Below, in pieces: positions 20,100 through 41,407 of a stretch of 64,000 nt of DNA. How positions within the stretch are numbered: the first letter of the stretch is position 1; every line of letters starts with the position of its first letter. The translations under genes and the position numbers were made by a program. The notes under the pieces are model-generated. The model searched no databases. It was not told the DNA's origin and saw only the letters and a list, made by a program, of their open reading frames with translations. This DNA comes from Tubiluchus corallicola (taxonomy: Eukaryota; Animalia; Priapulida), in assembly GCA_030141605.1 (NCBI GenBank), contig JAQGDQ010000018.1:1054001-1118000 (forward strand), given 5' to 3'.

Positions 20100-22831
20100 C
20101 TATGCCTGAGAATTGTCAACAGTAACAGAAGCTATGTCATTTTGTGAAACTTCTGCCTGTATAATAGATCCAGTTTCGTCTACATACTGAATAATATAAG
20201 AACCTGTTTCATTATCGGTTATCATCAAGTCTTGGTCAGACTCCTGCACGATTATTGTTCCTGGCTCCATAGCATCGATCACCATGTCAGTTTCATCATT
20301 TTCAACCTTGGGTGCTCGGAGATTTACTCGATTGACGATTTGTTGCAGAAGATTAACAGTTGGTGTTGAGGCTGAACTGTCAATTGTTTGAACAAACTGG
20401 ATATTATGGCCTTGGTTTCCGATGGCAGCATCTTCAGAAGTGGCGGAGTTCTGCTCTTCTAGAACATGTTCTGGGACCTCAACAACCTGCATGACATTGT
20501 CGCTAGAATCAACAGCTTCTTCAGTGACCTGCACTTCCTCGACCCAAGAGCCATGATGACGCGAGTTTATGTGCCGTTTCAAATCAGATAGGTTGCAGAA
20601 CAAATAGTTACATGTGGAGCATTTATAAATATCAACATCGGGCGGAAGAGTATTGTTAAATGTAGGTTGTGTGTAAGTCAAACCTTTGTGCATGCGAGTG
20701 TAATGAACCTTCATGGTAGCCATAGTGTTTGTGGTGTAATCACACTCATTGCACTTAATACGACGAATGCCACTGTGTGTTTCCATGTGTCGCTTCAAAT
20801 GGCTCTTCTGTGAGCCAGCATAATCACATCGATCACATTTAAACATTTTACCATGCTCATGTGTTTTCGTATGCCAGTAAAGAGCACCAGCAGATTTATA
20901 CTTCTTGCCGCAATCTTCGCAGAGTAGAGTCTTTTCTTTGGTGTGCTTCATTTGGTGAACCTTGAGGTTATTGGAGCTTCGGCATTGATATGGACATTTT
21001 GAACAACGGAATGGCTTAATACCTTCATGCAGCCATATATGCTTCGTCAAATCTTTTTTGTTGACAAATGTCTTATCACAGTATGTACAGGCATGAGTTC
21101 TCCGTCCCAATTTACCATGTTCATGAACCTTCATGCCAAGCAGGAGTTGTTTTTCATTTATATCCATAAGCGGGTGGATTTTCTTTATATGAGCTCGCAG
21201 CACTTTCAGACTAGTAAAGTGCTTACCACAAGACGTACAGTTTTTGTCTATAGGATCAAGGTGCACATCACGCTTATGGTGCCATAGCAACATTCTGGTC
21301 CTTCCTTGAAACTCACATTTGTCACATGAAAACACTTTATTTTCATGCACAGTTTCTGTATGTCTACGTAAATTCTCTTTGTTCAAAGCTGAATATTCGC
21401 AGTTCCTATAGTGACATTCGAATGTCTGCTGCCTGGTATGAACATTAACATGTTCGTTATAATCAAGCGGCCGATGAAACCTTCGTCCACAGTATTCACA
21501 CTCTAGTTCTCCAAACGTGACCTGCAGTTGATTAAATATGTTCAGACTCAGTGCCTTGTACTGGCACTCACTAAATATGGTATCTAGTGCCAGCAAATCA
21601 TTCGTTATATTAGCTTCCTCGACATTCTGATCAGAAGTTGTATTTTTTATTGGCATATATACTCCACCAGCTCCAACTTGAACAATGGCAACAGTGCCAT
21701 CCCTCTCTGGCAGGTATAAACTACAATTGATACTATTAGAAAGCAGTTCTTGCAAAACCTGCTCATCAGAATCATGTTCAGTTAAGTGGCTCATTAGTCT
21801 AGTTGCACTGACTAACTTCGTGCCACATTTGCAGCATACATAAATAACTCGGTGTTTGCTGTGATAATGCTTTATTAGTTGGTCACGTCTCGGTGCCACA
21901 TGATTGCACAGTTCACATACCTCACTACGCTTTGTTTTTACACTATGCCTGCTAAGATGGCGCTCAACATCAGCTCGGCTCTTAAATTTACGCTTACAGA
22001 CTTCGCACTGATGGAAAACAAACACTCCACCTTTCACATTTTTTGCTCTGAATGAACTTAAAAGATCTCTGCCCTTTCTAGTGTTATGTGCTCGAAGTAT
22101 ATGGCTTCGTAAAGATTTTGCAGTCGTACATTTAGCATGGCATATTTCACAGTCAATGTTACCAGGCTGATGAGTAGCAATATGGTCCATCATATGGGCT
22201 TTAGATGAAGCTTTGGCACCGCAAGCGGCACACTTTATAAAATTTCCTGTGTGTTTTCGCATGTGTGTATATAAATTGCCTCTGAAATTTGTTGCATAAT
22301 CACACTTAGAACATTTGAAAGGACACTGCTTGTCTAGATGCCTAACACAGTGTATTCTAACTGAATTTTTGGCACTGAATATTTTCTTACAAACATTGCA
22401 GCTATAAACAAACAAATCCTTATATCGCTCAGCTGCTTTACCATGTTCATTTACATTTTGTTCAAACTTGTGAGATGAATATAGTTTATCAACGTTATCA
22501 TAATTTATCTTCCCAAAACACTCTTTTTCAAAAGCCTCCCTTTCTTCTTCCGTGTCAAAAACGGGAACGTCAAAATTTGTTTTCGCTGCAATTGCAGCCT
22601 CGTCTAGAGTGAAGTCTCTGTCAGGAAAGTTCACATTTGACTCATTAGCTTCAGCATCATTACTGCCAACAGCTTTCACTTCCAGATCATCTTCCCCAAC
22701 GTGACTGCTTTCTTCATTGCTGTTCTCTACATTTACTTTAAACACAGTGACAGCACTTCCAGTTGCACCTTCTTTACCTTCAATAGCACTCCTTGATGTA
22801 TGAATAGAAACAGACACTTTTGGAGATTTGC
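20100..22831 (-). CDS. ZFAT: ZFAT terminal exon (17 C2H2 fingers)
   Basis: 912-aa ORF; acceptor TTTCTTTGTCAG ending at 22832; TAG stop at 20102-20100. Confidence 0.95.
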
Positions 22832-25800
22832 CTGACAAAGAAAAAATAGCAAACTAAATGAATAAAATAAAACTATGTACTCAACCACGTGTATAAACAG
22901 ACACCAAAATTATCCTTGAAAGAGTTTAAAGAATGACACAAAAGTTAAAATAAACTATTTACGTAAAACAAAAATACTTTGTACTTTTTTAGGGTTATTA
23001 TAGGCATCTAGGTAACCAGAACCGGAACTCCGAGTCTCGGACCAAAACCGGGCTGGAACATGCAAAAAATTGTTTCGAGATATTAATAAACCACTAGTTT
23101 CGGTACTGGAACCGAGTCCGGTTCTGGCCCCGTAACAACCCCAACTTTTTTCTTTAATTAAAAGCCAGAATCCAGTCTTTAATAGTGTAGCTTACTACAA
23201 ATGTTCATCGTTTTTGGTGGGATTTGAATCTAATAATCATCAAGGATAGTCCTCTGGAATAAGGCACTAAACTACTTTACCCATGTTTGGATGTATATAC
23301 ATAGTCTTTTAGGTGTCCAAGAGTTTTTCTGTCAACAATTGCAAAGCAGATAAAAAGGGTTGATAAAAATTCATATTTAATTTGCCATGTTAACCAAATA
23401 TTGTTAAAAATCTTCGTTAAAACATTTTTACTATTTTTAATGTCTGCTAGACAATTTTTTTTTAAATGTTGCTGTGTTTAATGCGTTTAAACAATCAGTT
23501 ATCAGTTTAAATTCCTGTATCCTTAACTTATGTATGTGTATGTGTGACTTTTCAGTCAATATTTTCTTTTGAGACACGCAACTGCACTCTTTATATATAG
23601 TAAACAAAATATAATAAAATATAAAAAATATAGCAAAAAATAATAAAAGTTAGACACTTTACTTTTTTCAGACATGTATTCAGCTATTCTTTCTAGGTCT
23701 TCATTCCAAGGTAGGTCGTCACATTCTACAAAAAATATTAAATTCTTTGACTATAATAGATAAAATGTATGGCAGTTTGGCAATAAAAATATTACACTTT
23801 GACATAATTAAAAATATTATAGTTAAAGGAAAAACCACCCCTAACCAACATTCATTGTATTTCCATATACAATTACAAATTTTGAAATTATCATGCAATA
23901 TATGCACACAAAATTTGCATATATTTGTTGCTTAAAAGTGCACAAGAAATTCAAGTCGTTCTTAACCCCTGCCAAATGAACTTTGCCATGGGCATATATG
24001 AAAAAATCATGTAAGCTGATGGACAGATGAAGGCACGTGTAAGAAAGCTTCTGCAGTTCACTCAGAAGTTCAGTTACTGAAGCTATTCTAGCTGTTTAAA
24101 TCTTTGTGTTTAATTGTGTTTATGTAAAAATTAGTCATCTGATCAACTAGAAACAATTTCAGAGTCCTTACATACCTTTAAATCACAGAATTTTACCAAA
24201 AAATGCATATGTACTAACCATAGATCGTCTTTTGACTTTCAGTTAAGCATGCAGTTCTGTGAGCATATAACAGGTGCTAGACATGTACCTCAGTTTATAC
24301 ATTTTAGTTTTAGCACAATGAAATATATACAGTAGGCGCCGTTTATTAGACTTAGGATTGATAGAATCAGTTGCTTAACTGACTTAAAAATGCGCTACGC
24401 GCCACTCCTATTCAAATACATATAAAAACCGCCAGTAACTGATACATACGTTTATGACATGCGCTATTAAAGAGGCTTTGCTTTAAATCTGTAACCCATC
24501 GGCTGCAGTTATTGTTGTGGGTTTCTTGAAGCTAAACATGTAGTTACTTGCCCAGGGGTTTGTTTTTGAAGCTCCCACTGCTTTTCACAGGGGCAACAAG
24601 GTCATCGTCAACTGTAGCCAACTAGGTGACTAGGAGTTTGCGTGAACGTGTACAGCATACAGCAACAGAATTTCAATATTTTTATCAGTATGAAAATTTC
24701 ATAAACCAACTTCTTGCAACCGATATGGCACCAATTATTGTAATAATCATATTTGAAAGATTTTTTTCTTTTCTTTTTTATTAATTACTTATATAAATTA
24801 GTACTCTTAAATAATAACTGCACATAGGAATTTTGAATTCGTTTCTAACATTTACTTAAAGCCTCTGCAATGCATACCAAGGTGATGACTAATACTCTTA
24901 TAATAGTAATATGCTACAACTGTCAGCCAATTGACTCAGTCAGTTAATTGGGTCAAAATACTTCCATCCCAAAGCGAGTCTATTAAGTGGCGCCTACTGT
25001 ATTTCGTTACCTCGCCATAGTCTGCTTTTCCTTTAACCACACTTAAATGTTATTTTTCCCTTGTAATGTTTTTACTTTTTTCAAAACTGCACATATGATC
25101 AGGAAAAAGGGTAAGTGAAAAGAAACCTCCAAAACTGGGAAAATTTAACAATTCGCTTGCATTTTTGCAGCGAAAAACAATGCACTAGCAATATGATACA
25201 GATTTTTGAAGAGATGTTAATGTCTACAACACTATATTAGCAGCAGCTTATACTCAGGAGCTAGAGCTGTATTTGAAAGGCAAGCACTGCCTCATTTTTA
25301 ATCAGTAGACACAGCAGTAGTACTATACTTGTGCATTACAATTGTGCTTTCGGTTACGTGGGTGGTATACATAGGTTCAGGATGAAGACTTTTACTAAAC
25401 TAATCTGGAATAAAGTTGTACTGGGAAACTGTGTCAAAAAACGACAAGAAGTTAGAGCTAGTTTCAATTCTTGAGGTTTGGATGTATGTGGTTTACATAC
25501 AAATATGAGTTGAAACCTAAACTTTCTCTTTAGTAAGTGACTAAGTCAGTGGTGTGCCACCGGTGTGATGGTACGCACTTTTGCAAATGAGAAAAAGTGT
25601 GGTGCAAATGAGAATAGGAATACAGAACACAGCACAGGCCAAGCATGCGATAAAGTACAACTTCATCACTTCATGTGATATATCCTACTCCCACTTCCTA
25701 CTATCTATCCCTATCAATCTCTCTGTGGCTGCACTAGTTTGAGAAGTGTGTGCTGAACCGGTCAAATCGTCTTCCCTAGGTCTCGCAGCTCAGGAAGGTA

Positions 25801-28800
25801 CTTAATTATCATAATTAAGCAATCAACAAATAAAATTTGATACGCAAGGCTAAAGGTTCACACGCTGGCATGCGCGCATAAAAACACTCTTGTAATAATT
25901 GAGAAAGGCAGTCTGCTGAAACAGATAGTGGAAGTCAAAGCAACAATATTTCAGACAGAATTCTGAAATATATATAAAAAAACAAGGTCAGCTTACTTTG
26001 AACATCGCATAAGGTACATAAAACCTGTACCTCTATCAATACCAGTATTCTCTATCCCTCCCTTTGTTTCTCTTGTTTGTGTTTTAAGAGAACTCCCTTA
26101 TGAAACAATTTAGCTTATGTGGCAGTGTTATTCACATAATAAAAACCTGTGAAGCTCTTTAATCAGTGACTACAAAATTCTAAATTTAATTAAGGAAAGC
26201 CTGTTTTGCAAACAAACGAGTTGCATTCCAGAAGAGTCAAATTTTTTCTGCTTGAGATTAGCATTCATTTTTGCATCACCTGAGCTTCAATTTTATGAGC
26301 TAGTTCTTCAATGGCTTCACTACTTGACTTCAAGCCATAATATATAACTTGCTACAGAGTTTATCTTTCTCCGACTTATAATTCTCCGCTTTAGCATTTT
26401 ATCAAAAAGACAGTCATAGAAATAAGACAATTTCCATGTGTCACATGCGTACATAAGCTGTACTATTATTTTGTTGACTAGTATTCTGAATGGTTTACAC
26501 CTCCACTGACGGATTAGCAGGGAATACATTCATTGTACTGACAAAGTTTCTGCGTGTCCAAGATAATCAAAGCAAATACAGTGGGTTATTCGCAAATTGT
26601 TCTCTAAAATACACCAAATTTAGTGATATATGGAGCTAAAAATATGGAGTTTTGTAATTCTTTTAAGCATTAAGATATATAGGAACAATTCTGAATTACA
26701 TCGAACTGCATAATAAAAATACATAATGCTACAACAGAAAGCCACTTTGCAAACAATTATGATTGTGCTTGCTGCCATCCATTATTTGGAGTGATGCGAA
26801 TGAGATTTTGCAACACCATCAGAGTGCGAATGGGGCTGAAACGAGTTGTGCACTACTGGACTACGTGCTTATTAAGCTTAGACAAATTAAACAATTTAAT
26901 ATTTCCAGTAGTTCTGTTACCAGTACCGATTTAATCGGTAAAACAAACAGATTGTAGGCAAACTAGCTCCTAGATTTAGTATTACCAATGAACAGAAAAG
27001 TATTGTTTGCTAAGAGACTATGTTGCTAAGAACATATTATGTTTCTAAAGTTATTATTATCACAGGGGAAACAAACCGGACATCTCCAGGAAAAGTTCTT
27101 CCGTTGTCTGTGGTGCTTGTTCTTTCTTTAAAGCGGAAAGATCGTGTTCGTAGGTATTGTCAGCAGCCAGGCACTTATGACGAGAAAGTTGTCTTGCACG
27201 GCTGAAGCTCTTTCCACATTCTTTGCACTGTGCAGGGATCTGGTCATTTTCAATGGAGTCGGATGGCTTCACAAGCTTCTCAGAAAGAGGATGAAGTTCA
27301 GCTGTAGACACTGTCAGACAAAAAATAAATGTGTAATTAGTTAATAAATTTAATTAGTTAACATTATATTGCCAAAATGGGAGTGAATTTGGCCACGGAA
27401 ATGGCCAAGACGCATAAATGCGAGATGATTGCAGCTACTTAATTTAGATTTAATAGCTTCACTGAAAAACATTATTTATCGAAAAGAAGTTGAATTTTAA
27501 CTCAGGAAATTGCTAGTAGGTGGCTGCAGCCATATTGACATTCAGTTTAATACACAGATCGCAAGTGGTGGTTAGCCTCGCTCACCTTGATGTAACACAC
27601 ATTCTCACAAACACTTGCTGGCTGCAAGTCGCCACAGATTACAAACATACGTTAAAAAAAACACGGATAGCTCTTGTGTTGCCATAAAATTCAAATTCAA
27701 TTTATTTGCCAGTCTCTAGTCTAAAAATCAGTAGAAAAGAAAAAAGTTTCAAAACTGGCAGAAAGACAAGTTTATAAATAATGCATCTCTTACTGTAATC
27801 ATTATTTCTTTGCTACAGTAATTTTTTTTTGAAAAATTAGTAACATTTGAGATTTGTTTCAAATGACTAGATTGTTTATTACTATAATAATAATAATTAT
27901 TATTATTAATATTACCGTTATTATTACATTATATACAGTACTGGTATTTTTTGGTTGCACATAACAGTTTAATTTATTATCAGTAGATAAAAAAAACTAA
28001 AATGTTTAAAACATCAGCTAGTCTTTTATTTCCCAAGTTATTTTGGTAATTTTTTGTGAGTTATCAGTAGCACTAGATATTTGTTTGAATAGAGCAGATT
28101 GTTTAAGTAACATCATTTATTACTATTTAATAGCAGTGATTTTTGGTTGTTACATAATTAGTGGTTTAATTTTCTGCAATGTGAACACGAAAGTTGAATA
28201 AATTATATAAAAATTTCAAGTAAGTTAGCCGAGCTAGACTTTGTGACTATTAATAATTACAAAACGTACAGACTATATCGACTAGTGTTTGTTCATACAT
28301 GCAGTCATATGCAACGAATGAAATTTTATGTTATGCTTTACAGTATCTGAAATACTCATTCCAGTGATTAAGTATTGATATACCATGTTACATTTCTACG
28401 TGTATCCAGCACTAACAATAAAACATTAGGAAACTTTGAGGAGACAGTAGAATTTTTATTGATTTTCAATGGGGTGAGCTGATCATGTGGCTCGTGCATG
28501 CTTTGATCCATCAGTGACACTTGTCTAATTTTTTTTTTGGATTGAGGAAACTGGGTATCCAACATCCACATTACATATGTTCCCAAGCACAATGCTTCAC
28601 CATTCTATTTTCTCTTTCACAGCAATTTAATGAATTCAATAAGTAAAAGCAATCATGAACACACGCTTTCTCTGTATGTTATTATGCACTTCGCGTGCAA
28701 ATACCCCTGCACTTGTGAGCAAATGTCCAGGCGCCAATAACAGAAAAGGAGTTAAAGCCAAAATATGGTAAGGGTAAATTGTAAGCAAGTCGCTTCTAAT

Positions 28801-31800
28801 TTTCTATCTGTGCCTCAGTACAAAGACAATAGCACAATGACCAAGCATCTATAACTTAGTGACCTTAGTGACCAAGTTTTAAGCAAAGTTGCGTCGTGGT
28901 TATTAAAAGAATCAGTAACACCCTGAAAAATCATTTTGCAGAGGTTATATTGGTGATGCTGATTAAAACATCTCTGAAGGCACACCTTTAAGGTGCATCC
29001 TTGATGATAAAGTAGATATCTCAACCATTAACAATAAAAAAGACCACCTTTTATAAGTACTACCATGACACAAGGACCATAAACTCTGTGAGCACCTCAG
29101 CAAGGCAAATCTAATTTAAAACTATTTATTACAACTTCACAAAAATTCAAAACATTAAATTTGGCCCAAAAAATTAGCCAAACAAAATTTAGTTGGATAA
29201 ATAAAACATACTAGTACCACTAGGTTTCTTGAGTTTGAAGCTTCCTTTAGGACGACCTCTTCCTCTTCGCACTGGGGCAACTGGTTGAGGGATAATGGAG
29301 TCAACATCAGTGACTTCAGCAGCGATAGCAGTATCTGCAAAAAGGTTGTCAATGTTAGGGAAACATCAGCAAATTCAGGAGTTTTACTTGTTTAAAAAGC
29401 TCAAGTTATCTCAATTAACTAATTAACAAAGCGACTGCTATAAATTTTTTTGTTTTGAACCAATGACAGCCTTAAATGGGGCCTTACAGGCCTTTTTAAA
29501 GTACCATGTACATCTGCTTTTTATGATCTATCATTAAATCAAATTAAAAAATTAAACAGCTCTAATTAATTAGTTACAAAGGTACTGCTAACTTTTTTTT
29601 GTTTTGAACCAAAAACAACTACTAACTAATCATTCTACCAAATTACCTACTATTAACTCAACTGTTAACCCTACTATTAACTAACTTGGATAAATACTTT
29701 TAGAGGACAAATTGAGTGAGAGAAGGAATCATCTGTTTTTTTCTTGGAATCAGCCAACAGTCTGCCAAACCGACTCTCACGAAAAGAAAAAATTTAAGTA
29801 ATTTAAATAATTTGTGATAACAGAAGAAAAATTACCATGCTATCACAAACCCACAATCAGACTATGCATCAGTGTCTCAGAAAGATAATTCTTGTTTCTT
29901 AATCGTTACTAAGTTACTATTGGTACACTTCTGGTTTTTTTAATATCTTTTGTAAACAGTAAAAGCCCTAACAGAAAGTTATGCATCTTTTAGGTTAGTG
30001 CAAAAGTTCAAATTTTTTAATTTTACGTAACACTACTCCAAATGCAAACCAAGTGTACAACGAAATCATGTATACATAGGTGACGTAAACTTTCAAATGA
30101 GTTTATGCATTGCACTTTCACATATCTAGTTGCTAAGAATACTGCAAAGGAACAATACTTTTAGAGCTTGACCACCGGTCAGGGAACATTAAAATTCCAC
30201 ATAATCAAAAGCTGTTAGAGCCAAAATACAGAGGGTCTGATTGGCCATTGCACGGTGGACCCTCGCTGGTTGATTGACATTCTGCGATCCGGTTTTATTA
30301 CCCATTGTTTCATTAAGCGGTGACTACTGTAGTAGAACAGAAAATACATGCAGTGCACCTTTAGATCCTACAATCACTGCTTCTTCAATGATCGAATTGT
30401 TCGCTTCATTAGCTAATGATGTTTCAGAATCCACCAAAGAGACATTGTTGGTATGCTGCTTATTTTGTTTTGGAGTAAAACTAGCAGAATCCGTGAATGG
30501 TACTGTTAATGTAACAGCCTCAATCTTCGTGTCTGAGGGTAAGCAAAAAAAAAGCATTGCTACATTTTAATCAAGGAAAGGAAATTGTAATATGAAATTA
30601 ATCTCAAGTAACATCCTGCCAAACTACTGTAAATCAGCAACAGAAAAGAAAATGTTGTTAAAAGGCTATAAAAACATTAGAAAGAATTATACATGTAATA
30701 ACGAAAATTGCAATGATTTTTTTAGTTTAATTCAAAGTAAAAACTACAGATATATTTGCAATTCTGCATATTTGTGTAAGCAATTTAAGAAACATTAAAA
30801 GAGCATTAACAAAAATACCTGAATTAGCTGGCATAGGTTGTAATTTGGTCATCACTTTTTCTGGATCATTGTTATCCGGTTTGACTCCATGAATAACCAG
30901 CAGATGGTGCCACATTTCATCTTCATGAAGTGAATAGTGAGAGCAAAGTTTGCACACATATACGATCTTTTTGTTGTTTGTGGCACTCGGCCGTAGCTGT
31001 TTTGAATGCACATCTAATTTTTCTAATGTACAAAAACATTACTTTAGGAATACTTGGTAATAGACATGGACTCTCAATTAATAAATGTTTATGACAGGTG
31101 AAAATTTCAGAGTAGTACTTTGTTGTATAATAATTTTTTTATTCTTTAGTACTTTACCATTAGTTGGCTTAAGACAGCACAGAGAATGGTATGACCAGTG
31201 ATAGAAGCTGACAAAGGAAACTCTTTAACATTAGTAGGAGTATAAAGATCTGCAGCATATGGAAAGTTATAGTTCATGCGACATACTTTAGCACTCATAG
31301 TCACTGACTGCAGATTTAGTTTCACAACATGTATGACAGACTACTGTGAACAAGATTTTTGCCACACTGGTGGCTCGTCTCAATACTCATTTGCATCAAA
31401 AGTGCTAATTAATCACATTTCTCACTTACTGGGCAGCTAAATGGGAATCCTATGTACTGCAACAATTACGCAAATGAATAATGTGATACACCATTTACAC
31501 TGGATTTTGCATATAATATGGTTGGTTTACTTAAATATACACTAAGATGAATGTGTCAGGTTGGTTAATTGCTCTTATTAAAGTGTAGGTGTTTATGGCA
31601 GGGCATCTAACTCAGCTAATCAAAATTGGGTATTGGTGGGTTTGAGATGTGTCGATTAGAGATTTAATTACATATCATAAATGGAAGTACACTGCTGATA
31701 TACAACGATAAACAATATGATTGAAAGGCACCCAGGATGAAGTGTCACGCCAAATGTCGTGGAAGTGAAATTCATTGATATCTAGATCTTCTACACAGTT

Positions 31801-32189
31801 AAAGTGAGAAAGTTGAAACTAAATGTGAGAACGTACACAGCATCAACTTTACAGATTTGCATCAAAAGTGAACATTCACAAAAACAAAACCACGTAAGTT
31901 TTCAATATGGTCTTGTGTTATAACAGGTATACTATGACAACCAATTAGCGAGGAAACAAAGCCAACCATGCAGGTAAAAAATATTACACAAAGCAACCAG
32001 CATTTTATATTAAAGCAAAATTTTCTTACTGTTATGTGTCTCCTTGTGTGCCTGGAACTTGTTATAACTGTGGTACTGTATATCACAGACACCACACGTG
32101 AAAACATCATTGTTTCTTTTATGCTCCAGAAATCCATTTACGTCATCAAACAGTTCATGGCACACTGGACATTCCACAGTATCAGACAT
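20100..32189 (-). CDS. ZFAT: Zinc finger and AT-hook domain protein ZFAT (6 coding exons, about 1208 aa)
   Basis: Exons 32189-32030, 31022-30819, 30532-30359, 29334-29212, 27310-27077, 22831-20100 join through GT-AG phase-1 introns into 3627 nt of open frame. About 20 C2H2-type fingers, AT-hook RRGRGRPKG, and ZFAT-type linkers (SINCSLYL, TFGELECEYCG, GKLGRRTHACTYC, HIWLHEGIKPF) recalled from vertebrate ZFAT. Confidence 0.88.
22990..23142. mobile_element. Short hAT-like MITE remnant
   Basis: TAGGGTTATTA...TAACAACCCCA ends with internal AACCGG/CCGGTT motifs. Confidence 0.45.
24330..24999. mobile_element. Tc1/mariner (pogo/Tigger-like) MITE, 670 bp, in a ZFAT intron
   Basis: TA|CAGTAGGCGCCGTTTATTAGACT ... 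AGTCTATTAAGTGGCGCCTACTG|TA: TA TSD, CAGT termini, about 23-bp TIR. Confidence 0.85.
26250..26530 (-). mobile_element. Possible degraded LINE ORF2 fragment
   Basis: LMYACDTWKL resembles the LxYGxETW motif downstream of RT; otherwise decayed. Confidence 0.35.
27077..27310 (-). CDS. ZFAT: ZFAT exon 5 (CKECGKSFSRARQLSRHKC finger)
   Basis: Acceptor TTTGTCTGACAG, donor G|GTTTGT, 234 nt, phase 1-1. Confidence 0.85.
29212..29334 (-). CDS. ZFAT: ZFAT exon 4 (AT-hook)
   Basis: Acceptor TTTTTGCAG, donor A|GTATGT, 123 nt; encodes PVRRGRGRPKGS. Confidence 0.85.
30359..30532 (-). CDS. ZFAT: ZFAT exon 3 (linker)
   Basis: Acceptor TTACCCTCAG, weaker donor AAAG|GTGCAC, 174 nt, phase 1-1. Confidence 0.7.
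30819..31022 (-). CDS. ZFAT: ZFAT exon 2 (conserved N-terminal finger YVCKLCSHYS...HLLVIH)
   Basis: Donor CAG|GTATTT; two in-frame acceptors 9 nt apart (exon start 31022 or 31013). Confidence 0.85.
32030..32189 (-). CDS. ZFAT: ZFAT first coding exon (MSDTVECPVC...CGVC...HKETH)
   Basis: Missing from the ORF track. Acceptor ATTTACAG before 32217, ATG at 32189, two zinc-finger-like units, donor A|GTAAGA in phase 1. Confidence 0.8.
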
Positions 32190-34603
32190 TCTGTTGCAAT
32201 TACTTTTATTTACAAACCTGTAAATTCATAACAAATAAAGAATAATTACAATATGATGGCTATTTCAGTTAAGTAATGGTTTTGTAAATGGTATATTTTG
32301 TCAAATTTGTGATTTTATACAAACACCTGGACAAGTGTAAATAAAAGAATATCCAATAATAATGACACCTGCAAGACACCAAACTTAAGCTACATGTGTA
32401 ACTTATGATGGTTAAAGCACTGAAATTATGCCGGCTGAAATGTCTGAGTAGCAGCATACTTAGAATTGTGCAGCAATCTTATGGTCTCCTATAGCATTCT
32501 GTAACTACTGTAAACGCAACAGCATAAAACAGATGGTCAGGCATCATGAACTGGTCTAGTTTGCATTACAAGTCCTGGGATCATGAATCATGGGAGTTTT
32601 TTTCATTATCCGAAGTTTAAGTAATGATATACTGTCAGTATAGAAAGTATAGTCAGTATATTCTGAAAGTTCTCTTTAAAGACAATCATGATGTTTTGAA
32701 ATTAAATCTTTAAAACGTGGCAACTGGAAGGTGAGTACATTTTAATCTATTTAAGGGGGTAAAAAGTGTTTCTCTGTCTACTTGAACATCAACCATACTT
32801 GGTTTATATATGTGAGAAGTGTTTTTGATATGACTTTTACACCTCAGAAAGTTCACATTCAAGCTAAAGTATAACCTATGTTTAAAATATTGATAGTGCA
32901 ACTAGCATAACACCTTGCATAGCATAGCAAAGCAATCAAATTTTAACTCTCTCGCTCGGTCTCTTTTATGAGGTAGCTACTCAGAATTTCTTAAATAGTT
33001 TATCAATAACAAAATAAGTGCCTTTTCTGCTATATAATGCTTAATAATTGCTTATTTATTAGTAACTACCTTTCTAAAGCAAAAATACATCAAACCATGA
33101 CAGAAATGCTTTACAACTTGTGCTTTAACAGGAAATGTAACTCACTTTATACAAAATGCATGATACTGTACGTAAAATATCCTCATGAACATTGGAAAAT
33201 AAGTATAACTCTTTTGTCTTTTGCATAGTTGGAGAGCCTTATCCTTACGTACGATGCGCATTCCTTATATACTTTTCCTCTTTTGTATTTTTGATATATA
33301 AAGAGATTCCTATGGTGGATTTTTTGGTTATTTATAAATGTCATTTTTGGGAATCATTTTAGAAACAAGTGACCATAGTCAGATTGACTTTCCTACTGCA
33401 AAATGATTATATTTCATGATGGTCAAAAGGTAATAGTTATTAAGAGACTGCGCAAAGTACATTTGGCAATGAGTGTCACAAATTATGATGAAGACTAAGC
33501 TGCTCATTTTCTTTGTCAGAGTTGGGTCCTCCTCAATCAGTAATGTGCATTCGGAGTCGCCTATTGCTCCTGAATTTATTGAGCATGTTCAATATCAGAA
33601 GCAAATATATCATCCTTGAATGGACTGAAACAATCTTTATTTTCCACACTTAGAGGATTTTGAATGAAAAATTCTCCTTCATGTGTCCGAACTGCCTCCA
33701 CCCTTAAATTGTTGTGCTTCAGTACTCATAAAATAGTGCTCAAGCATGACATTTAAAAGCAGCTAATATTTCTGAAAACTAGGAGGAAATGCTAAAAAAT
33801 GATACCCAAAAACCTGCAATTATGCAAACGATACATGAAAGAAAGTAATATATGTGACATCTCCACCTTTCTTCATGGACGAGTTCATGATGCATGGCCA
33901 GATGTTAAAAGTTTTGCCACATTTTAGACTAGGTGTAGTTTATGTAATACAAGAGCAATCAGCCCGATCAAATTTACATACATATAAAATAAGCCGATGC
34001 TAACAAAAATGTTTGTTAGAACTGTTCAATGCTGCAACTGATACAAACAGGTTTTGCTAACTTTGGTACATAGCTACTCTCTTTTGCTACGTCAGTAGCT
34101 TTTTGAGTACAAATCATTTTCTTTCCTATTTATAGATTAGCGAATTTTTCACACAATAACAGTGGGAAAATAGGCAGTGCACAATACATTATCTAGTTTT
34201 GGCAAATCAAATACACAGTTTGCTCGAGATTGTGAGCAAAGTTTACTTTATACACAAATAAACTCAACAGTAAAACAGATAACTTCAGAGATAAGCATGT
34301 AAGTTTAAACATTGATGTTTGTCTTCAAAAGTAAATAACTCTGCAAAAATTGATTGGCAATGACTGTGATGTAAATTATAGAAAATTACATGTAAAATTA
34401 AAGAAAAATTCGGTCTGCAACTTAGAGTGACTGAACTAGCAAAGCTAACTTCAGGAGTGCAGGATGAGTAATTTTTCAAACTTTCAACTCAAGTCAATTA
34501 CAAATTATAAAAGAATATCAATGAAAACAAATTACTCAAAACTTACTTAATGATTAAAAGAAAGTATTTTAAAGTAACTTGCTAGCAAACCAGTTAAGAT
34601 TTG

Positions 34604-34993
34604 CTATTTCTTTCGAGACTTTCTGGAACTTAGTAATGTCTGCAGTTCATCAATTTCGTTTTGCTGTATATAACCTTGACAAGTAGTTTCAGCCAGCATA
34701 TCAAAAAGTATATCTATCTTTAGTTTTAATAAATTATTTTCTTCACTCAAGTAACGGTTTTCTTTACGAAGTTTGTCTAACTCTTTACGAGTACTACCAT
34801 CCTCACTGGTATCACACAACCACTGACCATCTTGAAACATGAACTCCTTATCTTGCAGTTTGAGTTGTATAGGCCCATAATCACGGCCAAATTCAGCTTG
34901 TTGTGAAGCACGGTCTAAATTTAGATTTGACAGTGAAGGAGATTTCCGAGGCGTTGCTTTTTTTGCAGAAAATTTATTCCCAAACAGTGGCAT
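34604..34993 (-). CDS. CBY1: Protein chibby homolog 1 (basal body protein, beta-catenin antagonist), intronless, 129 aa
   Basis: MPLFGNKFS, RKSPSLSNL, FQDGQW and coiled coil LSEENNLLKLKIDILFDMLAETT match the Chibby family over the full length. Confidence 0.95.
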   Translation of the reverse strand: MPLFGNKFSAKKATPRKSPSLSNLNLDRASQQAEFGRDYGPIQLKLQDKEFMFQDGQWLCDTSEDGSTRKELDKLRKENRYLSEENNLLKLKIDILFDMLAETTCQGYIQQNEIDELQTLLSSRKSRKK

Positions 34994-35150
34994 TGTTGTT
35001 GTGAAATACTGATGAATACAAATTTAGAGAAAGGCAGTAGTAATCTAAAAGTGTCAGTAATCTGTCAAACTGTGGTCCCAAAGACAATTTGAAAAAAATT
35101 AATCACATTCAATCAGAAATGTTTCTGATAAACAAAGTCTCTACATAAGC

Positions 35151-35444
35151 TTAATTATTTTTTCCACTTTTTAACTGTTCATCTACATGCCGTGGTAATT
35201 GTGGACTAGTGAAATAATCTGCAGCAAATGAACGAACATCATCAGGTCTTTTGAGTAACACTTCACTTAAAAAACACGAAATCATGCATTCTACTTCAGG
35301 ATGGTCCTTCAAGTACTTTTCATTTTCTAACCGAGACTGGATCTTAAATTCTTTCAGTTTCGACTGCTGTTCAGAACTTAGAGCACCTGCATCATGTTGT
35401 TCTGTACTTTGCATTTTAACAGATGTAGAATTACTTTCCGCCAT
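35151..35444 (-). CDS. RIIAD1: RIIa domain-containing protein 1, intronless, 97 aa
   Basis: DAGALSSEQ..KLKEFKIQSRLENEKYLKDHPEV...EVLLKRPDDVRSFAADYFTSPQLP matches RIIAD1 (PKA RIIa dimerisation/docking fold). Confidence 0.93.
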   Translation of the reverse strand: MAESNSTSVKMQSTEQHDAGALSSEQQSKLKEFKIQSRLENEKYLKDHPEVECMISCFLSEVLLKRPDDVRSFAADYFTSPQLPRHVDEQLKSGKNN

Positions 35445-35622
35445 TGCTTTGACAAGTTTGGAAACCAGTTCGATTTTTGTACTGTACGAACGCTTACTTT
35501 GATCAAGTCACTATGACATTATTAGTCACTAATCCGCAAGATTACCCAAGTTCACATTTAAACAAACACTTCTAATTAAAACGTTGCTGGCAATTCCAGC
35601 TCAAGCAAGCCTCTGCGTCAAC
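35445..35622 (-). other. Predicted 5' UTR exon segment ahead of RIIAD1
   Basis: Acceptor GCTTTTTTGTCAG|G (exon start 35622); internal donor AA|GTAAGC at 35497; two minimal uORFs. Confidence 0.6.
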
Positions 35623-35999
35623 CTGACAAAAAAGCAATCTGTAGCTTTCAAAGTATAAGTCACTTAAGTAAATGACTGCTAGCTGAAGCAATTAGAACTG
35701 TGCTATGCCAAGTGAATCAAAATGCATTCATTGTAAAAATAACTCCGGTTATTCAAAAGTCTTGAATTTCGTTAACAGCGATTTTTATGTTCTCAAATCT
35801 CATTGAATAATCATAGTAATAGTAAGCTTTCGTTTCGACTGCATGATTAAAATAAAAAAAACGCTGTTATAAAATTGATAAGAAGCGCTACAATCGTAAA
35901 TCATAACATCAGATACACTAGTAATAGACATGAAAATTATACTGACGTGCAATTTCTATGGTTTGCATGCAGTAAGCATTTTTGTATTTTACGACTTAC

Positions 36000-36110
36000 C
36001 TTTTCTGGTATAATCAAAATGGAGGTTGACTTCTCATCACGTGACTAAGAGGCGCCGCCTGCAACCACACAAAATATGAAACGGAACATAATATTTCACA
36101 ACTCGCTAGC
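36000..36110 (-). promoter_or_regulatory. Predicted non-coding leader exon and promoter of the RIIAD1/CBY1/ZFAT unit
   Basis: Consensus donor AAG|GTAAGT at 36000/35999; local CpG patch with TCACGTGA E-box; stops in all three frames; a possible acceptor TTGCAG precedes 36058. Confidence 0.55.
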
Positions 36111-36123
36111 TGAACGTAGTCAG

Positions 36124-36560
36124 AATGGAAAAAAGAAATAAAAAAATAAAAAAGCAGCTAGAAAGCATCTAAAATAGAAGCTGAGAAAAGTGTGTAACAT
36201 GACAAAATTAAGATTTATGACTATGAAACATAGTGTGGAAAGTTGGGAACAGGCAACAAATTATGTGAGATGAGTGTGGTGAGAAAACAGTATTACTGAA
36301 TGGAAATTAAACATGATTAAATTAAAGTGTAATTATAAAAATAAGTGTAAGGATGATTTGATGTGTCCACTGTGTGTGAAGTAGTCTGGTACGACGGAAC
36401 ATCTGTTGAAATGTGAGGCAGCTAAAACATGTTTGGAGAGCGAGCGAAAATTGCCGAAAAAGATCTATGTTCAAGAAACTTTAGTAAGAGTCATGCAATG
36501 CTTGGATCAGACTGTGATAAAACTTGGAGAAATTCTGGTGGTCAATGTAGAGGTGTAAGA
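36124..36560 (+). mobile_element. 3' fragment of a non-LTR retrotransposon related to the 53.4-55.5 kb element
   Basis: Decayed WKKEIK...TKLRF...KLNMIKLKCNYKNKCKDDLMCPLC...TTEHLLKC, colinear with 54215-54495. Confidence 0.75.
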
Positions 36561-37259
36561 ACAACAGCGCGACAAGATACAGTTTTTTGGCTTGCTCCTT
36601 TATGATGTGAATATACAGATAAAAATGTTAGTACAGCCACTGTAAATCGCCTAGCTTTTCGTATGTGATGTATCATTGTGTCTATTGCTAATGCACTGCC
36701 ATTTTTTATTAGTAAAATAACAACAAATAAACGAGCTTTGGTTGGCTTCTTTCTTTTGACAACCAACAGAAAAACTTCATGACTTGGTAGTTTTCGTTTA
36801 AACTGTCCCATGAAAGTATTGCTGCTAAAAACTGACGACTAGGTTTGAGTTTTTCGTTTTTCTTCTGCGTGGAAACACCTGATAAAATACCAATAATTAT
36901 TGTTACTGGGGAAATCGAAGTCTTATGATGAAGGTTATTTGCTTAAGTGCATGAGTTCTAGCAGTTGTTAATTAGCAGTGTCAATTTTATATAATTAAAT
37001 GGAGGTTTCATGGACTTTCTAATTGGGTATAACACGACAAGTTTTGTTGCCATGGGCGCTTGCAATAATTGCTAAAAACCATGTGCGCATTAAACCACGT
37101 TCAGACAGTAAACTCGCAAGTGTGAATTACTTCACGATTTAGGCCTACTCTCCGCAAGAGTTAATTTACCAAAAAGGTACTGTCTTATAATATAATGTGA
37201 ATTCTTAATGATGGGCGATACCTCCGATTTCAGACCTATTTTAGTATCGCAATTAAGCC

Positions 37260-37493
37260 TATCGCTTACTTTCGTAAGTAAGCGGTGAGATGGCCCGATA
37301 GTATCCGATTCCAAATTTGTATTCCCAGTGCATGTTAAAACTTACGGAAACGGGTTCTAAGTTTGAAAGCGTGACTCAGCGTGTAATTTGATTCGCGATT
37401 TGCTCATGTTGAAAATTATTTCAAACGTATTTTCGCGTCATTTTGTCACTGTAAATTCATTAATACTAGCATTACTAGCTAGAAGTAAGCGAT
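37260..37493. mobile_element. Small inverted-repeat element
   Basis: TATCGCTTACTT at 37260 and AAGTAAGCGATA at 37482; local hairpin CGCTTACTT-TCGT-AAGTAAGCG. Confidence 0.35.
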
Positions 37494-40400
37494 ACCGGAG
37501 CCTGTGGCAAGAACTACAGTTATGTGCCTTTGATACTTTTCACCGCGAATAAGAGACAAGCTTATTTTGTCGCGAACACAGCTGTAATCCATTGAAATTA
37601 CACAATAAAGACCAATACAGAAATTTAATTAGCACCATAATTTTATTTAGCTAGTTAGTTTATTTATTGACGTTGACGCAAGGAAACTGCCCTGTAAAAT
37701 TAACAATGTCCATCTTGTATGCTATAAGGTTAGAGAGTTCGTAACAAATAAAATTTTATCTACTTGATAATTTAAATAAATTCAAAACTTTGTACGAGAA
37801 ACAACGAAAAGTAATTTGCTAAGTTCATTAAACCAAACATATTATTAAAGAATTGGCTTCTAAAATGTTCAGTAAGCTGACAATCTAACAATACATGTTC
37901 CTCATCTTGAATATCTCTGCCACTTATACTGAATTAGCGACTGTTTCATTCTGTAGCGTCAAACTTATTCTATTAGAACATTTTTGTCATTTTCCTTATT
38001 TCAGTTACAGTCATTTTCCGTAAGCCTGCAGCTTGGGCACGTTGATCTAGGATCTGCCATTAGGCACTACGTTTGGGTATACCACGGCACTCATTTTCAG
38101 GTCTTTGTGAACCGTGTAAAAAAGTTTACATAGAAACACTGTAGCTCGTTTAGGTTATATTTAAAACACGTTAGTTAATCACGTCAGTACACCAAAACAA
38201 CTTGTTTACACGTTTACTCTATATAATCTTATGAACATATTAGCATACAAGTTTTCACAAATTACTTGCTGTTAAAACTAGATAGGCCCATATTTCTTTA
38301 ATTCAACTGCAGCAAAGGCACTACTCGCTCACTCAGTCATGAAGCCAAGCCCATTATATGTAGATAATGAAAACTATATTTTTATGTATTTGTTTATTTA
38401 CACCATCGTCCTTGTAAAATGCACGATAAAATATATAGAAATAAAAAAGTCATAGTGAAAGCCGATATGGCGGAATTGTAATAACTTCCAGTTGTTCCAG
38501 GATCGATGAGTGCATCATAATTGTTACCCTACAAACTGTACCCTCCAAAAATAGTGCAATCCCATTTGATAGTCAATTACATTCTTGTGTTGTACTTTTT
38601 TATTTAGAAATAACAACAGGAACATTCATATTTTCCAGAACAGTATCGTACGTAAAATCTCACCATCCCCTGAGAGTAATTTTTCTCTAGTCTTGCTCTT
38701 GCAAGTTCTGTAACTTCTGTTGCGAGTTTTGCTGAGATTCAGCTCGCACTTACTGTTCGAGAGTCACAAACTGGCAACAAATTTTGCTCTCTATCTGAAA
38801 ACGCCTGCGAGTTAGTTGACGAGAAAATTCGTTAGTCTCAGCGCGCCGTTCAACCAGACGACGGACACGGGGGCTGCCAGCTTGTGGATAATAGACGAGC
38901 TTTGCTGATTGTTACAACTACAGTTTATTTAATATTAAACGCCAGTGGCTGATATTTATATGTATACTATAGACAAAAACTCTGTCTTCGAAAACCACAG
39001 TAAACGAAGTGCCTAAATGAATTTTGTAAGAACAACAATTGGGCGTCAATGCTTACGTACGCACGGACAGCGTGCTACAAATACAAATCAACCGTTGGTT
39101 CGTAATAATGCAAAATGCCAAGCAATAAACTGTAAGGTAGACACCTAGTTGTTAAAATATGTATCAGAGCCTATATTAAATTATAAACGAGCAAAGAGTG
39201 TCAGGGCTCAATATTATTAAATGTCAAAATTATTTTAGACGTGCATAAAATTGAAAAACTGTTAAAATTGTTAATTTGCATTGTTTTAAAATGTGTATCC
39301 ACTACAAAATAAAAGCTCCCATCGAAGCTCCAATGATTCAACAGATAATAGAATGCCAGAGTGCAATTGAAACGTTATTAATAAAAAAATGTATAAAATT
39401 GGTTTTGTTATTGGATATTTGTACCAACTAATCTACTTTCCACTGCAAAATTAACAACGTTTTTTCGAGATTGTAGGAGCCATCCCACTGGCGTAATAAT
39501 TGTAGCCTAGAATCATTTGCACTCTTAGAGTGCCTTTTACAATCACAAGCTGATTGTAGATTTTTTATCGTCAATGTCAACAGTTTCTGAAAGATCTTCA
39601 GCTAAGCAGGTCAGCTGTGTCATTTCAGACACAGAATTTTCCGCTGTTTAAGTATTCAAATACGACTTTGTTTATCTGGATAAAATAGTCTGATGCACTG
39701 CTGTGCAGCATTCAACTTACATTATGCATGTTAGCTTGCATCATAATTAACTATGCTAATGGATTGTGACAGTAAATTTATAATATGGAAAAAGTGTCAC
39801 ATTTAAGTTGGGAATGTACAAGTCTGTTTAGCTGGTTAATCAAACAACTTGTTATACCTTAAATAACATCACTAACTTAATTAAGAGCTTGTTGCACATT
39901 CAATCGTTACAGCATAATTTTGGATACGAATGAGCAACACTGATCCGTGGGACTAGTTACTACAGACTTTTCTGCCTTACAAATTGGTAGCAGAAAAACG
40001 ATTTTTGTATGGTGTACTAAAATGCAAGCTCATGTTTTTATACTGCACACAAAGAAGTTTGTTGCAAGCGTACAAAGCAAAAAATCATCAGCACATCTGT
40101 TGCCTACATTTTATTTTGGCAAATGGATGAACACTGAGGTGTAAGACCACATTTATTGTAAAAATACAGTATGTATTACGGGATACTCATAAGAATGTCA
40201 CTATGACACATGCATTGATGGTAAAATAACTGACACTTTGTAAAACTAAATAAAGGTATGCAGAAGAGTTTCTTAAATGCATCTATGATGTATAGTAAAG
40301 GTCTTTGATATAGTTTTATACATGTTTTAATAAAACATATAAGGCACCAGTTGACAAAACCAATTTAACACTAAATTAGAAAAGATTAACAGAAGGACAG

Positions 40401-41407
40401 AGTCTATGTAACCAGTAACAGATTTAATAGCATAATCTTTAAACCAGTGCAAGCCTTAAACAACAATAATTACCTACTATAACAGTGGGCACCTAAATTT
40501 GTAGCACGCGCCTTTATTAGGTTAGACAAGACACTAGATTTGTAAAGCAAAAAAATGAGCAAATTTTAATCTATGCAGCAAAATACTAAAAATATCCACC
40601 CATAACCACAATCTTATTTACATTGCTTATAAAAAAACCTTTTCCTAGAGGTAAGCAACAATGGTCTTGCTAGTTACCTTATAAATTTTCATCAATAAAG
40701 CACTGTACCGCACAGAATTGAAGAATTTGTGATATTATGAACTTAAGGGCAGATGTAATTCTTTCACATCACATAACAGTTTTCTCAGATTTTAAGACAT
40801 TTTACTAGTAAATGATCTATCAAAACAGAGTAACACATGGAGAACTTTTCTTAGTCAGTTTTACTTTTCTGAATCGGCATTAGTACTTCTTTTTGTGTTA
40901 ACTATATTGTAGCAGATTTAGTTGCAATTTTTTGTCATACTACTTTATAAAATTCATGTAAGTGGCGCCATCTGTGGCAATAATGTACACCCTTTAGTTT
41001 CAAGCCAGCTTTCAGCCAGTTACCTGTCAGTCACCTCTCTGTCCTTTACTTGTGCTGTAAACAGTCAAGTTTATCCACTTAATATGAGACATTTCTGGGC
41101 TGATTTTTGCTGCAAAAAGTATTTCAGTGGTATCAACTTCAGTTGGAAACGTTTCTGTCATTACATATATGTTGACCAAATTTGTTGACTAATGAATCAC
41201 TGCAAATTCCTCAAAATTTTGTTCAAACATTAACTAGCAAGGCTGAGTGAGAAAAATTCAAAAGCAATTTTATCAGCTGACAGTTACACACAAAAATAAA
41301 CGGAAAGAAAATACAACAATATGATTCGTTATGGCAAGTGATCCACCAACGACAACAACTTGTAGGTGCTTATGATACTCAAGTCACTGTAGTGGAATGC
41401 AGCTTTC

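What the first reader, a model, noticed from the sequence alone, without database searches (positions are those of the whole stretch)
34604..35622. Intronless RIIAD1-CBY1 ciliary gene pair arranged as a bicistron in the ZFAT 5' region
Seen: two complete, intact, intronless ORFs on the same strand, 157 nt apart (RIIAD1 stop 35151, CBY1 ATG 34993). The spacer has no AATAAA/ATTAAA on the sense strand and little room for a terminator plus promoter. Known: Chibby acts at the basal body/ciliary base, RIIa-domain proteins are typical of the axoneme, and both genes are multi-exon and unlinked in vertebrates. Inference: any RIIAD1 mRNA also carries the CBY1 ORF, giving a functionally coherent animal polycistron for ciliogenesis. 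I do not know of this arrangement being described.
Basis: partly seen in the sequence, partly recalled or inferred. Interest (0 to 1): 0.85.

Follow-up and report, generated by a model that had tools for sequence, protein, structure and literature searches.

The report
Tightly packed intronless cilium gene pair
In a likely priapulid-worm genome, two intact, expressed cilium genes (RIIAD1 and Chibby), likely old reverse-transcribed copies, sit 157 bases apart in front of the ZFAT gene; their RNAs likely overlap, but Chibby is more likely made from its own shorter RNA than from one shared two-protein message.

Summary
Both ORFs are intact, intronless and the only copies found. RNA-run contigs from a ~90% identical relative cover both, and 19 of 24 listed coding changes are silent.

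The bicistron is not shown. No contig bridges the RIIAD1 stop. A 157-nt spacer without AATAAA/ATTAAA is expected by chance (P = 0.68), and an AATAAA lies 15 nt inside CBY1. Ten internal AUGs in RIIAD1 make leaky scanning very unlikely.

In its favour, the CBY1 RNA carries at least 100 nt of unspliced spacer, which leaves RIIAD1 almost no private 3' end. Both spacer AUGs are start-stops.

The pair is not conserved: the Priapulus caudatus orthologues lie on different scaffolds.

Best reading (0.5): a Drosophila-type overlapping or dicistronic locus with a separate CBY1 mRNA. Strict bicistron: 0.3. Drosophila has 159 dicistronic pairs, so the kind is known; two-term paper search found none on this pair.

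The scan had not noted this pair. It had noted an intronless CEP290 nested in PLPBP elsewhere in this genome; I confirmed that frame and found DZIP1 and CATIP also intronless.

The parts
35151..35444 (-). RIIAD1 orthologue, 97 aa, single exon, only copy found; strong start context; 10 further AUGs inside (2 in frame, 8 out of frame)
   Evidence: RNA contig 35198-35579
34604..34993 (-). Chibby (CBY1), 129 aa, single exon, only copy found
   Evidence: RNA contig from 34741
34994..35150 (-). 157-nt spacer; no CpG (3.6 expected), no stable fold (z 0.53); at least 34994-35093 is present unspliced in CBY1-containing RNA
   Evidence: tables 7 and 8, loose end compared by eye
35141..35146 (-). start-stop element (AUG then stop), 4 nt after the RIIAD1 stop
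35103..35108 (-). second start-stop element in the spacer
35125..35150 (-). candidate splice acceptor (AG ending at 35125), best in the spacer (top 3.3% of control AGs); predicted entry point of a CBY1-only mRNA; use untested
   Evidence: the CBY1 contig would end near 35119 by its length
34973..34978 (-). AATAAA inside CBY1 codons (Asn-Lys); possible poly(A) signal for a RIIAD1-only mRNA; no clear U/GU-rich element behind it
35445..35579 (-). transcribed RIIAD1 leader, read unspliced across the GTAAGC donor-like site at 35497; holds a start-stop (35557) and a 2-codon uORF (35519)
35583..35594 (-). X-box-like (RFX) motif with zero spacer, 150 nt before the RIIAD1 start, next to where RNA cover ends; weak evidence
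   Evidence: 2 such matches in both strands of the window; PMC2375033 says an X-box alone is not predictive
35246..35259 (-). match to a published restricted X-box consensus inside the RIIAD1 ORF, 266 nt before the CBY1 start; one consensus position is changed in the RNA relative, so doubtful
   Evidence: 7 matches in both strands of the window; changes at 35247 and 35253
36000..36058 (-). predicted 59-nt non-coding exon (acceptor top 0.2%, donor top 0.1% of controls; all three frames closed by eye); candidate 5' exon of ZFAT and possibly of CBY1/RIIAD1; no RNA junction seen
   Evidence: control: 6 pairs on the + strand score higher
33575..33641 (-). first two AATAAA downstream of the CBY1 stop (33641, 33580); likely 3' end of CBY1-containing RNA
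20100..32217 (-). ZFAT-like zinc-finger gene, 6 coding exons; first coding exon opens with a strong acceptor (32218), so its 5' exon lies upstream
36118..36653 (.). dispersed repeat upstream of the pair (others at 37642-37933 and 33941-34375)

Best explanation
Two intact, expressed, single-exon ciliary genes, likely old retrocopies that replaced their spliced parents, lie in tandem in what is likely the 5' untranslated intron of ZFAT; RIIAD1 is likely translated from an RNA that runs on into CBY1, while CBY1 is likely translated from its own shorter RNA that begins near the start of the spacer. Steps: (1) shown: both ORFs are transcribed and conserved at protein level. (2) Shown: RIIAD1 RNA has an unspliced leader from at least 35579, and CBY1 RNA has at least 100 nt of unspliced spacer. 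(3) Inferred: RIIAD1 RNA starts at a promoter near 35.6-36.1 kb and ends either at the AATAAA inside CBY1 (34978) or behind CBY1 (33641), so the two units overlap. (4) Inferred: CBY1 mRNA enters at about 35125-35095, most likely by splicing of an upstream non-coding exon to the acceptor at 35125, otherwise from an internal start. Ribosomes then cross only one or two start-stop elements before the CBY1 AUG. (5) Inferred: the pair arose in this lineage, in a genome where several ciliary genes are intronless and some sit in or before same-strand host genes.
For: RNA-run contigs cover 35198-35579 and 34741-35072 plus 56 loose letters; the first 30 of these match spacer 35064-35093 at 22 of 30 by eye. 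The contig's length puts its end near 35119, next to the best spacer acceptor at 35125. Ten internal AUGs in RIIAD1 and a strong first start argue against leaky scanning. Reinitiation after long ORFs is described as very rare (PMC5972666, passages). In Drosophila only 45 of 159 dicistronic loci are exclusively dicistronic (PMC4528330, passages). CpG observed/expected is about 1.0-1.1 at 35445-39400, but 0 of 3.6 in the spacer and 16 of 46.8 at 32218-33940, like gene bodies here. That points to promoters upstream of the pair. ZFAT's first coding exon opens with a strong acceptor. Retrocopy origin: no second copy found; 10 of 20 metagenome Chibby loci are split into exons; orthologues on different scaffolds in P. 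caudatus. A similar layout occurs at CATIP-SUMF1 and CEP290-in-PLPBP.
Against: No spliced junction into the spacer and no start site was seen. The 35125 acceptor is modest: with 9 AGs in the spacer, one this good is expected about 1 time in 4 (my arithmetic), and the matrix rests on 11 donors and 12 acceptors. The 59-nt exon is outscored by 6 control pairs on the other strand. The start-stop at 35146 lies upstream of the 35125 acceptor and is not explained by this model. Contigs in this run are about 400 nt and end inside genes elsewhere too, so the gap at the junction may mean nothing. The spacer's lack of CpG argues against the internal-start variant. No poly(A) remnant or target-site duplication was evident by eye, and 6 of 20 outside Chibby loci are also single frames, so intron loss in place followed by rearrangement is possible.
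Confidence: 0.5

Rival explanations
1. Strict bicistron: one mature unspliced mRNA from about 35590 to about 33620 is the only source of both proteins, and CBY1 is made by reinitiation or internal entry across a spacer that has kept only start-stop AUGs.
For: CBY1 RNA reads unspliced through 4 spacer AGs and the AATAAA at 34978; RIIAD1 RNA reads through the donor-like site at 35497. All 4 non-coding AUGs between 35622 and 34993 are start-stop (3) or 2 codons (1), against a background of 7.6% and 13%; 2 of 2,550 runs of four successive AUGs in the window do this (post hoc). The distance of 157 nt lies in the -34 to 319 nt range of exclusively polycistronic fly loci, and small proteins are over-represented there (PMC4528330). 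No CpG in the spacer.
Against: No bridging contig; the uncovered stretch (35198 to about 35119) holds the RIIAD1 stop. Ten internal AUGs in RIIAD1. No structure in the spacer and no Rfam match there. Not conserved in P. caudatus.
Confidence: 0.3
2. Two separate, abutting genes: RIIAD1 mRNA ends at a variant poly(A) signal at its own stop, and CBY1 starts from a compact promoter inside the end of RIIAD1, so no RNA carries both.
For: Two separate contigs with a gap at the junction; variant hexamers at 35159 and 35156; an X-box consensus match at 35259.
Against: Only 31-57 nt remain for a RIIAD1 3' UTR and cleavage; one-mismatch hexamers are expected to be common in AT-rich DNA; the X-box match is altered in the expressing relative and overlaps invariant codons; no CpG in the spacer.
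Confidence: 0.13
3. Nematode-type operon: a polycistronic pre-mRNA resolved by spliced-leader trans-splicing onto CBY1.
For: The geometry resembles nematode operons (about 100-150 nt spacer, U-rich stretch, acceptor 16 nt before the AUG; geometry recalled, sequence); four same-strand genes in a row.
Against: The CBY1 contig runs unspliced through the AGs at 35009, 35045, 35062 and 35070. Two paper searches listed no report of spliced leaders in priapulids (3 of 3 listed; 15 of 288 listed, none naming Priapulus). The loose 5' end of the RIIAD1 contig is a copy of RIIAD1's own 35365-35349, not a leader.
Confidence: 0.05

Closest known systems
Drosophila dicistronic loci curated by FlyBase (PMC4528330, passages read)
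   Different: No spanning mRNA shown here; priapulid-like host; both members ciliary and intronless; sits in the 5' region of a third gene.
Cholinergic locus (ChAT/VAChT; cha-1/unc-17): one pre-mRNA, common first exon, alternative splicing (PMC2776167, figure legend passage; gene names and nesting recalled)
   Same: Predicted shared non-coding exon upstream of small intronless ORFs lying in the 5' intron of a larger same-strand gene.
   Different: Shared exon only predicted; two nested ORFs rather than one; host (ZFAT) has no known shared function; not conserved, whereas the cholinergic locus is.
Drosophila stoned and Adh-Adhr, directly translated dicistronic mRNAs (named in PMC2776167 passages)
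   Same: Would be the model if the strict bicistron holds.
   Different: Translation of both from one RNA is untested here.
Retrogenes nested in host introns, e.g. this genome's CEP290 inside PLPBP (scan note e1-10608720)
   Same: Intronless ciliary gene, same strand as a spliced housekeeping neighbour.
   Different: Here two copies in tandem, in a 5' untranslated region rather than a coding intron.

Membership tests
Chibby family (PF14645) | Full-length match above the curated cut-off | tested here: met
   124.4 bits against 24.8, positions 1-113 of 114
RIIAD1 orthologues | Closest relatives are named RIIAD1 over most of the length | tested here: met
   57.6% over 92 aa to P. caudatus RIIAD1-like; 3 of 4 hits named RIIAD1
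RIIAD1 orthologues | Pfam RIIa domain above cut-off | tested here: inconclusive
   19.3 bits against 22.4; many named RIIAD1 proteins list no Pfam domain either
Dicistronic mRNA locus (FlyBase sense) | Two intact, conserved, same-strand ORFs at a short distance | tested here: met
Dicistronic mRNA locus (FlyBase sense) | A processed mRNA spanning both ORFs | tested here: inconclusive
   Two contigs, none bridging 35198 to about 35119
Dicistronic mRNA locus (FlyBase sense) | Both proteins translated from the same isoform | not testable with these tools
   Needs ribosome profiling or reporters
Leaky-scanning bicistron | Weak first start and few or no AUGs in the first ORF | tested here: not met
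   G at -3 and +4; 10 internal AUGs
Cholinergic-type shared-first-exon locus | A common non-coding exon spliced to each gene | tested here: inconclusive
   Candidate exon 36058-36000 predicted; no RNA junction
Cholinergic-type shared-first-exon locus | Use of the donor-like site at 35497 to excise the RIIAD1 ORF | tested here: not met
   The contig is collinear across 35497; contigs can drop rare variants
Spliced-leader operon | Leader joined at an acceptor close to the downstream AUG | tested here: not met
   Unspliced through 35009, 35045, 35062, 35070; the site at 35125 remains open
Spliced-leader operon | SL RNA gene in the genome | not tested
   Only 32000-40000 was scanned with Rfam
Retrogene | Lacks introns present in orthologues | tested here: met
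   CBY1: 10 of 20 outside loci split, near residues 59-62 and 100. RIIAD1 introns in orthologues are recalled, not tested
Retrogene | Poly(A) remnant, target-site duplication or surviving spliced parent | tested here: not met
   None evident by eye; no second copy found; expected to decay in old copies

The most novel reading that the evidence does not exclude
Two ciliary retrocopies fused into a young, obligatory animal bicistron: one RFX-driven mRNA makes RIIAD1, then makes Chibby by reinitiation across a spacer purged of all but start-stop AUGs. It would be part of a lineage-wide relocation of cilium genes (CEP290, DZIP1, CBY1, CATIP, RIIAD1) as intronless copies, some of them inside or in front of housekeeping genes.
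Probability: 0.27. Interest if true: 0.62.

Novelty: new member of a known kind. Interest (0 to 1): 0.36.

Why it matters
As a gene pair it is one more lineage-specific overlapping or dicistronic locus, and mainly an annotation trap: one-ORF-per-transcript pipelines would likely drop one gene. If the strict bicistron holds, it offers a small natural test of reinitiation after a 97-codon ORF via start-stop elements, and of how an animal bicistron is born from retrocopies. The side result may matter more. Three of the four members of the CEP290-DZIP1-CBY-FAM92 module, and both RIIAD1 and CATIP, are intronless in this genome. That suggests repeated germ-line retrocopying of cilium genes, but there is no genome-wide background yet.

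Tried and rejected
No RNA holder was listed by the run search; the RNA run X2 came in only by species label. At 90% likeness it showed nothing on the pair; at 80% it did. ZFAT's first two coding exons (range; the first also) and the predicted 59-nt exon have no X2 cover; this is not used as evidence. Run X1 shows no spliced joints and looks like DNA; none of its listed pieces spans the spacer (103 pieces not shown), so it neither confirms nor questions the assembly there. Contig depths (68 and 46) were not used to rank the genes.

Loose 5' letters of the RIIAD1 contig as a spliced leader: rejected, 17 of them match RIIAD1 35365-35349 exactly.

A structured internal entry site: no support.

X-boxes as proof of promoters: weak. 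Of 6 control ciliary loci only 1 had a near match, by its first exon, and PMC2375033 warns that presence is not predictive.

Linkage elsewhere: 0 of 20 metagenome Chibby loci hold RIIAD1 (loci only 1.0-8.4 kb). In 3 of 3 fishes with both proteins and a contig length listed (Centropristis, Brachyhypopomus, Erpetoichthys) the lengths differ. A paper search for neighbouring Priapulus accessions found 0. No RIIAD1-CBY1 fusion was seen among the fetched proteins, but the homologue searches were length-limited.

No complex prediction was run, since binding is not claimed.

Genome-wide intron loss as the whole explanation: not supported, 7 of 8 ciliary genes picked beforehand are split (one weak single CFAP20-domain hit dropped; five identical MKS1-like copies counted once).

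Supplements were not read. File S1 of PMC4528330 (list of polycistronic genes) could show whether fly Cby is among them.

Full report
Observation. The minus strand holds a 97-aa ORF (35444-35151) and a 129-aa ORF (34993-34604), 157 nt apart. The second is Chibby. The first is RIIAD1 by its relatives, although its Pfam RIIa score is under the cut-off. No second copy of either was found in the own genome G000 (only the best candidates are scored); the only other RIIAD1 hit is CATIP. The closest named relatives of both proteins are from Priapulus caudatus, 60% and 58%, so the host is likely a priapulid or close kin. Upstream lies a spliced RRM/zinc-finger gene and downstream a ZFAT-like gene, all on the minus strand.

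The poly(A) argument. The spacer lacks AATAAA and ATTAAA, but this is expected 68% of the time here. An AATAAA lies at 34978 inside CBY1, and the next ones are at 33641 and 33580. So sequence alone does not force RIIAD1 mRNA to carry the whole CBY1 ORF.

Expression. Run X2 is labelled 'RNA?'. It behaves as RNA: one contig skips three GT-AG introns of the RRM gene, and its only other piece outside the pair is a 31-letter repeat match. At 80% likeness two contigs lie on the pair. One covers 35198-35579 (382 letters, 31 different, 12 gap letters). The other covers 34741-35072 (322 letters, 25 different, 10 gap letters) plus 56 loose letters. The run is therefore a relative about 90% identical, not the same individual. 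The listed indels lie outside or at the edge of the ORFs. Of 24 listed coding differences (40 rows shown, 120 not shown), 19 are silent and 5 change the protein, where about 20% of sites are silent. Both genes are live.

What the RNA says about structure. The RIIAD1 contig crosses the donor-like site at 35497 unspliced. The CBY1 contig crosses the AATAAA at 34978 and the AGs at 35009, 35045, 35062 and 35070 unspliced. Its first 30 loose letters match spacer 35064-35093 at 22 of 30 positions by eye; the other 26 were not shown and would reach about 35119. So at most 57 nt, perhaps 31, separate the RIIAD1 stop from RNA that also carries CBY1. Two tidy, non-overlapping genes hardly fit, and trans-splicing near the CBY1 AUG is not seen. 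But no contig bridges 35198 to about 35119. Contigs in this run are about 400 nt and end inside genes, so the gap decides nothing. The loose 5' end of the RIIAD1 contig is a copy of its own 35365-35349, likely a chimera.

Translation. The RIIAD1 start is strong and the ORF holds 10 more AUGs, so leaky scanning to CBY1 is very unlikely. Reinitiation after long ORFs is described as very rare (PMC5972666, passages). The spacer has no special fold and no Rfam match. One oddity favours a scanned spacer: all 4 non-coding AUGs between 35622 and 34993 are start-stops (3) or 2 codons long (1), against 7.6% and 13% in the window; 2 of 2,550 runs of four successive AUGs do the same. This was noticed after the fact. 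Three of the four would also be explained as ordinary leaders of two separate mRNAs; only the one at 35146 specifically favours the strict bicistron.

Promoters and splicing. CpG is depleted in gene bodies here (0.41 in the RRM gene, 0.50 in ZFAT) and near 1 at 35445-39400; intergenic DNA is also high (0.82), so high CpG marks 'not gene body' rather than 'promoter'. The spacer has 0 of 3.6 expected CpG and 32218-33940 has 16 of 46.8, so no promoter-like stretch lies between CBY1 and ZFAT. ZFAT's first coding exon begins with a strong acceptor, so its 5' exon likely lies upstream of the pair. A candidate 59-nt non-coding exon sits at 36058-36000, though 6 control pairs on the other strand score higher. 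The best spacer acceptor is at 35125. Two X-box-like motifs (35594, 35259) are weak evidence. Fly Cby is reported as an RFX target (PMC2375033, passages), but the same paper says an X-box alone is not predictive, and the 35259 match is altered in X2.

Conservation. In P. caudatus the two orthologues lie on scaffolds of 873,744 and 768,588 bases; an unannotated second copy there cannot be excluded. None of 20 metagenome Chibby loci holds RIIAD1; 10 are split into exons, 6 are single frames and 4 are partial. Three of three fishes with both proteins and a contig length listed have them on contigs of different length. The pair looks lineage-specific.

Intron loss in this genome. Of 8 ciliary genes picked beforehand, 7 are split (B9D2, B9D1-like, MKS1-like, two CFAP20, FAM92, CFAP91; B9 names recalled) and 1, DZIP1, is one 806-aa frame. 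CATIP, found by accident, is one 388-aa frame about 2 kb upstream of a spliced same-strand SUMF1 whose first coding exon opens with a strong acceptor. This is the same layout as here. CEP290, from scan note e1-10608720, is one 2,345-aa frame flanked on the same strand by exons that read like PLPBP by eye. That these genes are multi-exon in other animals is recalled. Retrocopying with loss of the parent is the likely source; no poly(A) remnant or parent was found.

Function. Human RIIAD1 is found in motile cilia, including the transition zone (PMC12772120, PMC13096173; passages), belongs to the PKA docking-domain superfamily (PMC8339350, passages) and is predicted in a CATIP-CFAP91-AKAP14 complex (10.1101/2024.10.01.615885, one passage). 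Chibby is tied to CEP290, DZIP1 and FAM92 at the ciliary base (titles and abstract starts only). Both are ciliary, but no shared complex was found in what I read.

Comparison and verdict. D. melanogaster has 159 dicistronic pairs, only 45 of them exclusively so, and 130 genes share a promoter and non-coding 5' exons (PMC4528330, passages). Alternative splicing from a common first exon and directly translated dicistrons are both established (PMC2776167, passages). A search for papers holding both 'RIIAD1' and 'chibby' found 0, and the scan had no note on this pair. I put overlapping units with a separate CBY1 mRNA at 0.5, a strict bicistron at 0.3, fully separate genes at 0.13 and trans-splicing at 0.05. 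It is a real, apparently undescribed, lineage-specific member of a known kind; interest 0.36.

Noticed in passing
G000:C38:67917-70334 (L052:3918-6335, minus): DZIP1 is a single 806-aa open frame, convergent with a spliced YJU2-family gene; with CEP290 and CBY1 that makes three of four members of one ciliary-base module intronless (FAM92 is split).
   Followed up: partly
G000:C1676:436915-438078 (L047:4915-6078, minus): CATIP is a single 388-aa open frame with an AG 29 nt before its first AUG, about 2 kb upstream of a spliced same-strand SUMF1 whose first coding exon opens with a strong acceptor: the same layout as RIIAD1-CBY1 before ZFAT.
   Followed up: partly
G000:C680:451631-458665 (L054-L055, plus): CEP290 is one 2,345-aa frame between same-strand exons that read like PLPBP, agreeing with scan note e1-10608720.
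   Followed up: partly
window 41400-45126, minus: Spliced gene joining an hnRNP C-like RRM to two BCL11-like zinc fingers (labels recalled); three introns confirmed by RNA contig; start codon not located.
   Followed up: partly
window 34546, minus: A GTAAGT donor-like site 57 nt after the CBY1 stop could splice the RIIAD1-CBY1 exon on to ZFAT (tricistronic RNA); no RNA evidence.
   Followed up: no
window 20100-22831, minus: The last ZFAT-like exon is 2.7 kb and holds most zinc fingers without introns; the gene also has an extra first coding exon with two zinc-finger-like motifs (32217-32030).
   Followed up: no
window 37126-38794: One X1 contig skips 1,667 bases here (23 letters on the short side); possible deletion allele or repeat artefact in the upstream CpG-rich region.
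   Followed up: no
G000 contigs C47, C2241, C2293, C2394, C2409: The MKS1-like locus matches with identical scores on five contigs, and several repeat hits recur identically, suggesting redundant contigs in the assembly.
   Followed up: no
window 37046-37059, minus: Near-palindromic X-box-like motif with a perfect 3' half in a CpG-rich stretch, 290 nt downstream of a strong donor-like site at 37345.
   Followed up: no
window 53356-54560, plus: Broken reverse-transcriptase-like reading frames (by eye), likely a decayed LINE-type element.
   Followed up: no
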